Shown here piece by piece: positions 12,181 through 12,925 of a stretch of 64,000 nt of DNA. This DNA is from an uncultured Clostridia bacterium (GTDB lineage: Bacteria > Bacillota > Clostridia > Christensenellales > UBA1242). How positions within the stretch are numbered: the stretch's first letter is position 1; each line of letters begins with the position of its first letter. Made by a program: the position numbers and the translations under genes. The notes under the pieces are model-generated. The model ran no database searches. It saw only the letters and a list, made by a program, of their open reading frames with translations, and was not told the origin of the DNA. The stretch covers positions 23,050 to 87,049 of the forward strand of contig CAKVOD010000006.1 in NCBI GenBank assembly GCA_934778205.1, given 5' to 3'.

Positions 12181-12925
12181 GTATTTGTAATTTAGGGTTT
12201 ACATTTTGCGGTAGCCTAAATCAATAAAACTGCTTTTTAATCGTAAGGTACTATTTTTATTGTCATTTCGACCGAAAAGGGTTTGTCAAAACCCTTGTAG
12301 CGGAGAGTGCCAGACGGCACAGGTGTGGTTGTTGGTTGATGCGTATTTGTTGTTGTGAGACGGCACCCAAATTTGCAGTCAAGGCGAGCCTTGCCGGAAG
12401 GGGTCAAAATTAGTTATGGGCATACAACCCCATTGACAGAGGCAGCACATAAAATAAAGATATCCCATTATTTCGCTAGCGCGGTCATTTGACTAAGTAC
12501 CCCATAATAAACCGCGTCCCCTTCCGGGAGATTTCTCCGCTTTGGCGGCGACTACGTCGCCAACTCCGGTCGAAATGACAACGGGGGTAGTGACTTACCA
12601 CAAAAATAAGGTAGCCCTTTATTGTATGCTAGCGCGGTCATTTGACTAAGTACTACATAGCAAAGCGGGTTGCCATTCCGGCAGGGCTCGCCTTGACTGC
12701 AGATTTGGTTGTCATCTCACAGCAACATTCATACAAAAAAACAAAATCTGCACCAGTGGCGTTTGCCACCAGCTGCGAGGCTTTCCCCGAAAAAAGGTAC
12801 ATAGTAATTTAACTATGTACCCATTGCATTTAGTGCCACTTACCAAACCCGTACGAGTGGCGTTTGCCACCAGTCGCGCGCTATCGCATAAAAAAGACAG
12901 CCCAAAACGAGCTGTCAAATACCTC
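12181..12925. repeat. mosaic palindromic repeat cluster R2 (MITE-like element 12243..12601 plus partial inverted copy, REP hairpins and terminator unit)
   Basis: The arms TATTGTCATTTCGACCG...GCGGAGA...CCGGAAGGG and CCCTTCCGGGAGATTTCTCCGC...GGTCGAAATGACA...CTTACCAC are complementary. The same modules recur in at least 8 other clusters. Confidence 0.8.

What the first reader, a model, noticed from the sequence alone, without database searches (positions are those of the whole stretch)
12243..12601. MITE-like long palindrome with a conserved scaffold and a slot that always holds a hairpin of unrelated sequence
**Scaffold.** The element scaffold reads GTGGTAAGCCAC..ATTGTCATTTCGACCG-[slot]-GCGGAGAAATCTCCCGGAAGGG..GCGGTTTATTATGGG..centre (..GCTAGCGC..)..CCCATAATAAACCGC..CCCTTCCGGGAGATTTCTCC-[slot]-GGTCGAAATGACAAT..CTTACCAC.

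**Copies.** Complete or half copies lie at 12243..12601, 23708..24057, 36858..37284, 39846..40240, 42790..43112, 46480..46955 and 59510..59848.

**Slot contents.** The slot between the GTCATTTCGACC box and the GGAGAAATCTCC box holds a different self-complementary insert in different arms:
- AAGGGTTTGTCAAAACCCTT, or its covarying form AAGGCTTGTCAAAGCCTT
- GCGAACAAGTTCGC
- GGCGGCGACTACGTCGCC
- GCGAAAATGCAATTTTCGC
- GGCGGAGGCGTCAGTCCTCGCC
- a REP hairpin GGTGGCAAACGCCAC
- a whole 93-nt array unit (46592..46700)
- nothing (59808..59817)

In three copies the GGAGA..CCGGAAGGG box is itself split by a ~100-nt insert that starts with GTGCCAGACGGCAC.

**Interpretation.** A fixed scaffold with variable stems is what structured RNA families look like. 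It also fits a nested-insertion hot spot for small mobile hairpins. I recognise neither this element nor a known family that matches it.
Basis: partly seen in the sequence, partly recalled or inferred. Interest (0 to 1): 0.7.

Follow-up and report, generated by a model that had tools for sequence, protein, structure and literature searches.

The report
Mosaic hairpin repeats in gut Clostridia
The "long palindrome" is built from a roughly 140-base repeat that litters the spaces between genes of an uncultured human-gut Clostridia bacterium. At its centre is a conserved folded core whose hairpin tip is swapped unusually fast, so it is a new family of a familiar kind of bacterial repeat (REP/BIME or MITE-like) with no function shown yet.

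Summary
All the conserved boxes, all seven loci and all the listed slot contents are present, far above chance.

**Unit.** The true unit is a ~140-nt arm, not the palindrome. Arms occur alone, head-to-head, tail-to-tail or head-to-tail.

**Core.** Each arm contains a 60–75-nt core, which also occurs without the rest of the arm:
- a small hairpin (H1);
- box A (TGTCATT..);
- the slot;
- box B (..AATCTC);
- a CCC-GGAA-GGG mini-hairpin.

**Structure.** Box A pairs with box B, and the slot is the tip of that helix. Over 114 distinct cores from two gut lineages, two helix positions covary (G-C, U-A and C-G; none unpaired at the first).

**Slot.**
- The small slot hairpins never occur outside the scaffold, so they are not free mobile hairpins.
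- One orthologous arm carries three different slot contents in three related genomes.
- Larger REP-like modules do land in the slot.

**Dynamics.** Arms lie between terminators and promoters, in either orientation. They are gained and lost between genomes 93–97% identical.

**Not found.** There is no Rfam, plasmid or phage match, no target-site duplication and no transposase.

**Verdict.** This is a new REP/BIME-like mosaic repeat family. Whether the fold acts in DNA or in RNA is unresolved.

The parts
12239..12448 (+). Arm, type I. Box A at 12262-12273, slot hairpin AAGGGTTTGTCAAAACCCTT, and box B split after GGAGA by a ~87-nt insert (12307-12393) that starts GTGCCAGACGGCAC.
12472..12612 (-). 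Arm, type I and complete. Slot is GGCGACGTAGTCGCC (type T5). It lies head-to-head with the arm at 12239-12448.
12625..12727 (-). Partial arm: the inner part plus the 3' part of the box-B insert. It is a direct repeat of the inner end of the neighbouring arm.
23703..23811 (+). Duplicated 5' part of an arm (up to box A, 23730-23741), followed by a ~70-nt REP-like module (GGTGGCAAACGCCAC AGGTGCAAGTTTGG...) sitting at the slot position.
   Evidence: the same configuration is seen in L034
23802..23909 (+). Arm, type I, with an empty slot (GTAGC).
23931..24068 (-). Arm, type I, slot AGCGAACTTGTTCGCT (T2). Together with 23802-23909 it forms a head-to-head palindrome lying between addB and addA.
36846..37056 (+). 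Arm, type II. Box A is ATTGTCATTGCGAGG and box B is TGGCAATCTCCCGGAAGGG. The slot holds a ~100-nt insert (36891-36988).
   Evidence: absent from L034 and L036
37078..37290 (-). Arm, type I, slot AAGGCTTGTCAAAGCCTT. Box B is split by the GTGCCAGACGGCAC insert (37218 downwards).
39822..39963 (-). Arm, type I, slot GCGGAAATGCAATTTTCGC (T3). Its ortholog in L003 has an empty slot.
39964..40020 (.). Tail-to-tail spacer containing GCTACCGC. It is conserved at 42906-42969 and 46750-46813.
40021..40162 (+). Arm, type I, slot GGCGGAGGCGTCAGTCCTCGCC (T6). It is followed by an AT-rich centre and an inner arm fragment reaching to ~40232.
42790..42905 (-). Arm, type I, with an empty slot (AACGT).
42970..43110 (+). 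Arm, type I, slot GCGAAAATGCAATTTTCGC (T3b). The same slot is present in the orthologous arms of L034 and L036.
46516..46749 (-). Arm, type I. Its slot keeps an AGCGG/CCGCT stem that encloses a whole 93-nt array unit (46592-46698). The orthologous arms carry a T7-like slot (L034) and a T5 slot (L020).
46814..46953 (+). Arm, type I, slot AAGGCTTGTCAAAGCCTT (T1a). It is part of a 330-nt segment (46706-47035) that is 89% identical to 42862-43194.
59498..59719 (+). Arm, type I, slot AAGGGTTTGTCAAAAACCTT. Box B is split by the GTGCCAGACGGCAC insert (59577-59663).
59743..59860 (-). Arm, type I, with an empty slot (AACGT). The whole block 59442-60003 is missing from the syntenic locus L006.

Best explanation
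This is a family of interspersed mosaic repeats of the REP/BIME or MITE kind, specific to a narrow clade of uncultured human-gut Clostridia.

**Unit (shown).** The unit is a ~140-nt arm:
- an AT-rich lead-in (ACCTTAT);
- a small hairpin H1 (GTGG-TAAG-CCAC);
- box A (TGTCATTTCGACC);
- the slot;
- box B (GGAGAAATCTC);
- a CCC-GGAA-GGG mini-hairpin;
- TTATGGG;
- TTGAC(C/A)GCGYYAGC.

**Fold (shown).** In single-stranded form, box A pairs with box B. Five Watson-Crick pairs are followed by one or two conserved purine-purine mismatches. The slot is the free tip of that helix, so its sequence can vary as long as it remains a hairpin.

**Evolution (shown).**
- Arms sit in the untranscribed gaps between terminators and promoters, in either orientation.
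- They turn over quickly between close relatives.
- Their variable modules reassort.
- At least one event is a segmental copy between loci whose breakpoint lies at box A.
- The slot boundary is a recurrent junction with the genome's other REP-like hairpin modules.

**Mechanism (inferred).**
- The invariant boxes are kept because a trans-acting protein recognises the folded core. This could be a transposase, a recombinase or a nucleoid protein, and none was identified.
- The small tip hairpins change by short-patch exchange between copies rather than by insertion of autonomous mini-elements.
- The element behaves as selfish or structural DNA rather than as a cis-regulatory RNA.
For: **Reality and abundance.**
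- The boxes are real and far above chance.
- There are about 45 arms in 199 kb, arranged solo, head-to-head, tail-to-tail and head-to-tail.
- Core-only copies exist.

**Structure.**
- RNAalifold pairs box A with box B.
- Over 114 distinct cores, pair 37-84 is G-C 59, U-A 44, C-G 11, with 0 unpaired. Pair 38-83 is C-G 103, U-A 8, other 3.
- Pair 39-82 is non-standard in 113 of 114 cores; the box A/box B table shows these to be purine-purine (G·A, G·G, A·G).
- The covariation score is 0.129 against 0.033 in shuffles, and 0 of 500 shuffles reach it.
- Slots fold as centred hairpins, with compensatory variants within types.

**Slot behaviour.**
- The slot hairpins are never found outside the scaffold.
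- Slot content differs at orthologous arms.
- Slot class is statistically independent of the linker and of the 3' variable segments.

**Turnover and recombination.**
- Arms are present or absent between genomes 93-97% identical and between ~85% identical genomes.
- Window 46706-47035 is 89% identical to 42862-43194, with the left breakpoint at box A.
- REP-like modules abut box A at 23742, at L034 12470 and at 46592-46705.

**Context.**
- Arms lie downstream of terminators and upstream of promoters.
- Solo cores show no orientation bias relative to genes: 8 against 9, and 8 against 5.

**No known match.** There is no match in Rfam, plasmids or phages.
Against: - No transposase, RAYT or other candidate partner was found. 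A tblastn search with a consensus recalled from memory found nothing in 0.8 Mb, and the neighbours are housekeeping genes.
- No target-site duplication or clean empty site could be defined. All indels between relatives are complex, so homologous recombination alone could explain the turnover without any transposition.
- The loop GGAA and the string AATCTC are invariant in two lineages of different GC content. That is more than a purely structural DNA hairpin needs, and it is equally compatible with an RNA function.
- The covariation rests on only three or four subfamily transitions, so the shuffle statistic overstates the number of independent events.
- Thermodynamic z-scores for the core are modest (-0.2 to -2.5).
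Confidence: 0.5

Rival explanations
1. The core is a structured non-coding RNA, either a free-standing small RNA or a protein-binding decoy. It would be transcribed from its own promoter. The box A:box B helix, the purine-rich internal loop and the GGAA (GNRA) tetraloop would be RNA features, and the slot would be a variable stem as in many RNA families.
For: - The helix covaries, and a non-canonical purine-purine pair is conserved.
- A GNRA-type loop, GGAA, is invariant on the box A to box B strand.
- The forward strand folds into the proposed structure.
- The core is conserved in two lineages with 39% and 47% GC.
- The tail-to-tail spacer carries an ATGAAA-17-TATAAT promoter-like site pointing into the + arm in three copies.
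Against: - There is no Rfam match, even at E = 10.
- No promoter or terminator is consistently associated with arms or with core-only copies.
- In head-to-head pairs both strands would carry the motif.
- Copies with box B destroyed by a 100-nt insert persist at three window loci and in related loci.
- G·T against A·C mismatches in slot stems run only 6 to 3, so there is no clear strand signature.
- There are dozens of copies per genome, and they turn over rapidly in position.
Confidence: 0.2
2. The slot is a nested-insertion hot spot. Each small hairpin would be an autonomous miniature mobile element, like the small dispersed repeats of cyanobacteria, that targets the site between box A and box B.
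For: - The slot can be empty (5 nt) or filled.
- Filled and empty states occur at one orthologous arm.
- Large REP-like modules and a 93-nt array unit really are found inserted there.
- The same behaviour, including ~124-nt inserts, is seen in the second lineage.
Against: - None of the ten small hairpin cores tested occurs anywhere outside the scaffold in 199 kb.
- Filled and empty slots differ in their flanks (GAA...GCAGC against AACGT), so the difference is a replacement and not a clean insertion.
- The same few slot types recur in three genomes.
- For the large modules this reading is probably right. For the small hairpins it is not.
Confidence: 0.1
3. The copies are decaying relics of an extinct element, with no current activity or function. 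Apparent box conservation and mosaicism would come only from gene conversion among paralogous copies.
For: - There are truncated arms, a microhomology deletion (L003 2790) and arms disrupted by inserts.
- All indels are complex.
- No partner enzyme was found.
Against: - Boxes A and B are invariant or nearly so in 34 of 34 full arms, while the segments between them are unalignable.
- Compensatory changes keep the helix and the slot stems paired.
- Arms appear at new sites in genomes 93-97% identical.
- The same core architecture is maintained in a second lineage.
Confidence: 0.15

Closest known systems
REP / BIME / REPIN elements of Proteobacteria (mobilised by RAYT, TnpA_REP)
   Same: - High-copy extragenic imperfect palindromes.
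- They occur singly, as inverted doublets and in mosaic clusters with characteristic head-to-head and tail-to-tail linkers.
- A conserved tetranucleotide lies immediately 5' of the hairpin foot (here TGTC).
- Families are lineage-specific.
- The features of REP/BIME used here are as summarised in PMC6006769.
   Different: - The unit is ~140 nt with several conserved boxes, not a 21-65-nt hairpin.
- The 5' tetranucleotide is TGTC, not GT[AG]G.
- The host is a Clostridia bacterium.
- No RAYT was found in the sequence held.
- The hairpin tip is hypervariable and also accepts other repeat modules.
MITEs and structured intergenic repeats of other bacteria (Correia/NEMIS of Neisseria; BOX and RUP of Streptococcus pneumoniae; bcr1 of the Bacillus cereus group). 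These comparisons come from my own knowledge and were not tested here.
   Same: - Small, non-coding, intergenic and multi-copy.
- Modular (BOX has boxA, boxB and boxC).
- Predicted to fold stably.
- Present or absent between close strains.
   Different: - No target-site duplication is visible (Correia has TA, bcr1 has TTTAT).
- No cognate transposase is known.
- The conserved part is an internal core, not the termini.
- No sequence comparison was possible, because these elements are not in the libraries offered.
Integron attC sites (folded single-stranded recombination sites with a variable terminal structure). This comparison comes from my own knowledge.
   Same: - The base of the hairpin is conserved and has obligatory mispairs.
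- The terminal structure varies from a few bases to a long branched insert.
- Recognition would be by structure rather than by sequence.
   Different: - There is no RYYYAAC/GTTRRRY consensus.
- There are no gene cassettes between sites.
- No integrase was seen.
- Copies are dispersed, not in an array.
Small dispersed repeats (SDR) nested in other repeats in cyanobacteria (Elhai et al. 2008). This comparison comes from my own knowledge.
   Same: Very short palindromic sequences found inside larger repeats, at positions that preserve a hairpin.
   Different: SDRs are dispersed at many unrelated sites. The slot hairpins here occur only inside the scaffold.

Membership tests
REP/BIME/REPIN | Short extragenic imperfect palindrome (21-65 nt) present in many copies | tested here: inconclusive
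   The box A-slot-box B hairpin is 35-75 nt, extragenic and multi-copy. However, it is embedded in a 140-nt unit that carries further conserved boxes.
REP/BIME/REPIN | Conserved GT[AG]G guide tetranucleotide 5' of the hairpin foot | tested here: not met
   The four bases 5' of the helix foot are (T/C/G)GTC in all 114 cores (GTC is invariant; the first base is T in over 90%), not GT[AG]G. The definition is taken from PMC6006769.
REP/BIME/REPIN | Inverted doublets and mosaic clusters with specific linkers | tested here: met
   Head-to-head pairs have an 18-26-nt AT-rich centre. Tail-to-tail pairs have a conserved spacer.
REP/BIME/REPIN | A cognate single-copy RAYT (TnpA_REP) gene flanked by the repeats | tested here: inconclusive
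   A tblastn search with Y1 and RAYT consensus sequences written from memory found nothing in 0.8 Mb. The complete genome could not be searched.
MITE (derived from a DDE transposon) | Terminal inverted repeats bounded by a target-site duplication | tested here: not met
   At 59498/59860 and 23703/24068 the flanks continue the inverted repeat and are not direct repeats. Solo arms have no second terminus.
MITE (derived from a DDE transposon) | A full-length element with the same ends that encodes a transposase | tested here: inconclusive
   None is seen next to any of about 160 cores. The neighbours are housekeeping genes. The IS3-type transposase in L029 is not flanked by arms.
IS200/IS605-derived palindrome-associated elements | One strand only is active, giving a strong orientation bias relative to replication and gene direction | tested here: not met
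   Solo cores are co-oriented against anti-oriented with flanking tandem genes 8 to 9 and 8 to 5.
Any Rfam 15 RNA family | A covariance-model match at or near the gathering score | tested here: not met
   Only a tRNA reaches the gathering score in the window. E-value scans of two loci return only chance hits, a plant miRNA precursor at 27 bits against a gathering score of 135.
Integron attC | R''/L''-L'/R' boxes (RYYYAAC ... GTTRRRY) with gene cassettes between sites | tested here: not met
   The core boxes read TGTCATT.. / ..AATCTC. Neighbouring ORFs are syntenic housekeeping genes.
BOX / Correia / bcr1 / RUP | Sequence similarity to the described consensus of each family | not testable with these tools
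   No reference sequences for these elements are available in the libraries. The resemblance is architectural only.

The most novel reading that the evidence does not exclude
The 60-75-nt core comprises H1, the covarying box A:box B helix with its conserved purine-purine mismatch, a hypervariable tip, and the invariant AATCTCCC-GGAA-GGG.

The most novel reading is that this core is the recognition or active module of an undescribed system shared by at least two human-gut Clostridia lineages. That system could be either of two things:
- a new class of structured RNA, protein-binding or self-processing;
- the folded single-stranded substrate of a new hairpin-directed recombinase or transposase, whose activity makes the helix tip a programmed exchange site.
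Probability: 0.2. Interest if true: 0.75.

Novelty: new member of a known kind. Interest (0 to 1): 0.45.

Why it matters
- **Genome plasticity.** If the reading is right, this uncultured gut Clostridia clade carries a dense, fast-evolving layer of modular repeats. These repeats reshape intergenic regions between strains that are 93-97% identical.
- **Assembly and binning.** Short-read contigs break at these arms, which affects metagenome assembly and binning.
- **Strain typing.** The repeats could serve as strain markers.
- **Unusual features.** Few bacterial repeat families are documented with a core that has a covarying helix, an invariant loop, a tip that is swapped at orthologous sites, and a role as a landing pad for other repeats.
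- **A concrete target.** The core gives a defined sequence for finding the protein that recognises it.
- **Limit.** It stays ordinary in kind until a transcript, a binding protein or a transposition event is shown.

Tried and rejected
**Searches of known families and collections**
- Rfam at the gathering score and at E up to 10 gave nothing real.
- The arm pair has no match in plasmids or phages by blastn.
- The type I 20-mer has no hit in IMG/VR or in the metagenome collection.

**Literature and protein searches**
- Full-text searches for the core sequence and for peptides it would encode returned only unrelated primer matches.
- I recalled that junk ORFs such as RLPRRFAPRND or VIARSEATWQS are common in many phyla. 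A search of 5.8 billion proteins with a 52-aa pseudo-ORF gave one weak candidate, so the recollection is not confirmed and is not used. A first attempt failed because the query was too short.
This is only a weak negative.

**Functional readings considered and dropped**
- Promoter or terminator function of the arm: TTGAC(A/C) at the inner end looks like a -35 box and TGTGGTAAGGT like an extended -10, but matching partner elements are not consistently present.
- A kink-turn, a sarcin-ricin loop or a hammerhead core around the slot: I checked these by eye against the consensus I remember, and none fits.
- A small ORF starting at ATGACAAT on the reverse strand: it is not conserved between copies.

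**Boundaries, strand and relatives**
- Clean insertion boundaries or a target-site duplication from orthologous comparisons: every difference is complex.
- A strand signature from G·T against A·C mismatches came out 6 to 3, which is inconclusive.
- More distant relatives: the lineage with a 73% identical marker protein has no core in 20 kb.
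Full report
**1.

- The three scaffold boxes occur far more often than chance:
  - GTCATTTCGACC, 15 sites against 0.19 expected;
  - GGAGAAATCTCCCGGAAGGG, 11 against 0;
  - GCGGTTTATTATGGG, 6 against 0.11.
Each locus is intergenic on a six-frame ORF map.
- Reading the loci and tabulating what lies between box A and box B reproduces every slot content in the finding. This includes the empty slot, the REP-like hairpin at 23742 and the 93-nt array unit at 46592-46698.
- The ~100-nt insert starting GTGCCAGACGGCAC splits box B at three places.

**2. Host and distribution**

- Neighbouring genes point to a Clostridia bacterium: AddA/AddB, an RsgI-like anti-sigma factor, GlnRS, FtsH and proteins with the Listeria-Bacteroides repeat.
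- The window is identical to part of a 67.9-kb contig of an ENA metagenome assembly. Short contigs from Hadza gut samples carry the same protein at over 99.9% nucleotide identity.
- Among 185,579 species-representative genomes, the box B 20-mer occurs in only two, both MAGs of uncultured Clostridia.
- It does not occur in IMG/VR or in the metagenome collection.
- One MAG is syntenic with the window at ~84-85% nucleotide identity.
- Closer relatives, at ~93-97%, were recovered through a marker protein.

**3. The unit is an arm, not the palindrome**

- A profile built from nine arms finds about 45 arms in 199 kb.
- Arms occur in four arrangements:
  - solo (about 15);
  - tail-to-tail, as at the window loci 39822-40162, 42790-43110 and 46516-46953, around a conserved spacer;
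  - head-to-tail.
- An alignment of 34 full arms shows invariant or nearly invariant boxes separated by segments that are often unalignable. The boxes are GTGGTAAG, TTGTCATTTCGACC, GGAGAAATCTCCCGGAAGGG, TTATG(G/A)G and TTGAC(C/A)GCGYYAGC.
- Five copies consist only of box A, slot, box B and CCCGGAAGGG, with unrelated flanks. One of these sits at orthologous positions in the two MAGs.
- The smallest conserved entity is therefore a core of 60-75 nt.

**4. The core is a folded structure and the slot is its tip**

- RNAalifold pairs box A (ATTTC..CCG) with box B (CGG..GAAAT) and pairs CCC with GGG. Single-sequence folds of the forward strand give the same picture, with modest z-scores.
- A relative whose marker protein is 78% identical carries two further subtypes:
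  - ATTGCGAG / TCGCAAT;
  - ATTCAGAG / GGAAT, with a CGCG-AAC-CGCG mini-hairpin in place of CCC-GGAA-GGG.
- The first of these subtypes is also the left arm of the window locus at 36846.
- Scanning metagenomes with the type II 20-mer returned 51 loci from many human-gut assemblies of a different organism (47% GC, housekeeping neighbours) carrying the same core. They include one more subtype, ATTCTGAG / GAGAAT.
- Counts over 114 distinct cores:

| Pair or measure | Result |
|---|---|
| Helix pair 4 (columns 37-84) | G-C 59, U-A 44, C-G 11, none unpaired |
| Helix pair 5 (columns 38-83) | C-G 103, U-A 8, other 3 |
| Next position (columns 39-82) | non-standard in 113 of 114; the box A/box B table shows purine-purine (G·A, G·G, A·G) |
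| Covariation score | 0.129 observed, 0.033 in shuffles, 0 of 500 shuffles as high |

- Only three or four subfamily transitions underlie these numbers, so this is good qualitative evidence and not a strong statistic.
- H1 also changes while staying a hairpin: GTGG-TAAG-CCAC, GTGA-TAAG-TCAC, GTAC-AA-GTAC, GTGC-AAC-GCAC and GTAC-GAA-GTAC.
- A covariance model of the core finds 13 intact and 3 disrupted copies in the window. It finds none in a more distant relative.

**5. What the slot holds**

- In type I arms the slot is either 5 nt (AACGT, GACGT or GTAGC) or has the form GAA(A/G) + hairpin + G(N)AG(C/T).
- There are about seven hairpin types, and all are shared among the three genomes.
- Every slot of 17 nt or more folds as a centred hairpin. 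Most are more stable than at least 97% of shuffles.
- Within types there are compensatory variants: T1a/T1b, T3/T3b, T5/T5b, T6/T6b and IIb/IIb2.
- None of the small hairpins occurs outside the scaffold. This rules out the idea that they are free mobile mini-elements.
- The second lineage shows the same behaviour with its own set of tips: GC-NNA-GC mini-hairpins, GCACCGC-TTT-GCGGTGC, GCATTGCC-AAC-GGCGATGC and ~124-nt inserts.

**6. The slot and the arms change fast**

- At one orthologous arm, the window (46516-46749) and a relative ~96% identical (L034) are nearly identical from box B inward, but the slot differs. In the window it is an AGCGG/CCGCT stem enclosing a 93-nt array unit. In L034 it is a T7-like hairpin. 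In the 85% relative (L020) it is a T5 hairpin.
- A second orthologous arm has a T3 slot in the window and an empty slot in the MAG. The flanks differ as well, so this is a replacement and not a clean insertion.
- Whole arms differ between close relatives:
  - the palindrome at 36846-37290 is absent from both close relatives;
  - the arms upstream of the RNase T-like gene are absent from L034;
  - the block 59442-60003 is absent from the MAG.
- No difference has clean boundaries, and no target-site duplication is visible.
- Window 46706-47035 is 89% identical to 42862-43194, and its left breakpoint is exactly at box A. At least this event is therefore a segmental copy between loci, joined at a conserved box.
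- Slot class is statistically independent of the linker and of the 3' variable segments. It is, however, associated with H1 class.
- REP-like modules repeatedly abut the slot side of box A: window 23742, L034 12470 and window 46592-46705.

**7. Context argues against a cis-acting RNA**

- Arms lie after the predicted terminator of the upstream gene and before the promoter of the next. Examples are terminators at 43145-43120 and 47163-47138, and promoters at 42651-42623 and 46385-46357.
- Solo cores show no orientation preference relative to flanking tandem genes: 8 against 9 and 8 against 5.
- No promoter or terminator is consistently part of the arm.
- G·T against A·C mismatches in slot stems run 6 to 3, which gives no clear strand signature.

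**8. Comparison with known families**

- Nothing matches in Rfam, plasmids or phages.
- The architecture is closest to REP/BIME/REPIN as summarised in PMC6006769: extragenic palindromes, inverted doublets, mosaic clusters, and a conserved tetranucleotide 5' of the hairpin foot.
- It differs in three tested respects:
  - the tetranucleotide is TGTC, not GT[AG]G;
  - the unit is several times larger;
  - no RAYT was found in the 0.8 Mb held (a weak negative).
- It fails the MITE test for target-site duplication.
- It fails the IS200/IS605 expectation of strand bias.

**9. Verdict**

- This is a new family of a known kind: interspersed mosaic palindromic repeats.
- It has three features of some interest:
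  - a core with a covarying helix and an invariant GGAA loop, shared by two gut lineages;
  - a helix tip that is exchanged at orthologous sites;
  - use of that tip as a landing site for the genome's other hairpin modules.
- Shown: the structure, the mosaicism and the turnover.
- Inferred: the agent that recognises the core, whether the fold acts in DNA or in RNA, and whether arms transpose or only recombine.

Noticed in passing
window 49292-49699, 57509-57899, 46592-46698, 12756-12871(-), 60104-60211(-): There is a second repeat family: tandem arrays of a ~93-nt unit. Each unit opens with a REP-like hairpin, GGTGGC(A/G)(A/G)ACGCCAC, followed by TGGTGCAGGTAC..CCTAC.., GCAGACGGC and TTCTATA..TTGTTCTC (TRF period 93, 2.3 copies at 49377-49594). 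The arrays often lie next to the arms.
   Followed up: partly
window 12307-12393, 23742-23811, 43168-43231, 49590-49620, 60015-60060 and others: All the genome's other repeat modules begin with a 14-16-nt GC hairpin followed by (T)GGTGCAGGT or GCTGCAGGT. The hairpins are GGTGGCAAACGCCACC, GTGCCAGACGGCAC, GCGCGATAGCGCGC and GCGGGGATAGCCCCGC. This shared 'head' could be a common recognition or cleavage site.
   Followed up: partly
window 43120-43145(-), 47138-47163(-), 12790-12825, 46960-46990, 58325-58350, 59950-59985, 60040-60075: An intrinsic-terminator-like cassette, GGTACATAGTTAAAATACTATGTACC plus a T-run, is itself a dispersed repeat. It is usually fused to one of the small GC hairpins and to GCTGCAGGTTTGGTTGG.
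   Followed up: partly
window 41274-42581 with 41232-41245, 42595-42608, 42671-42684: The AAA_14/DUF4143 ATPase gene is missing from the relatives L036 and L028. It is bracketed by copies of the hairpin TGCGTATTTACGCA, and its promoter and leader cassette is tandemly duplicated (42560-42700). It may be a mobile or accessory cassette.
   Followed up: no
L038-L088 (human-gut metagenome contigs, 47% GC): A second and apparently more prevalent gut lineage carries the same H1 + core module (TGTCATTGCGAG-slot-GTGGCAATCTCCCGGAAGGGCAAC). It lies next to housekeeping genes (mnmE, mnmG, jag, yidC, nrdD, rng, malQ), often a short distance after a terminator hairpin. This lineage has its own set of further repeats, for example TTCTCGCCGTTTTAAGAGA and GGGGACCCCGCGGGATACTGTGTACCCGTGGGG.
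   Followed up: partly
window 23654-24112: A complete head-to-head palindrome plus a REP-like module fills the 458-nt gap between addB and addA. In the sampled relative with no arms (L031), the region after addB looks compact.
   Followed up: no
L034 2003-5264: Relative to the window, the close relative L034 has an insertion carrying a 615-aa ORF with no Pfam hit and a HicA/HicB toxin-antitoxin pair. An extra arm (2003-2118) lies at one edge of the insertion.
   Followed up: no
window 16744-19806, 43263-46316 (and 14522-16642, 49734-51017): Two ~1020-aa ORFs have no Pfam match. Neighbouring proteins carry the Listeria-Bacteroides repeat. These are probably large surface proteins, and they are flanked by repeat-rich intergenic regions.
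   Followed up: no
L025, L026, L037 (short contigs of other samples): Short-read contigs of the same species end at window position 39945, which is inside an arm. The repeats therefore break metagenome assemblies.
   Followed up: no
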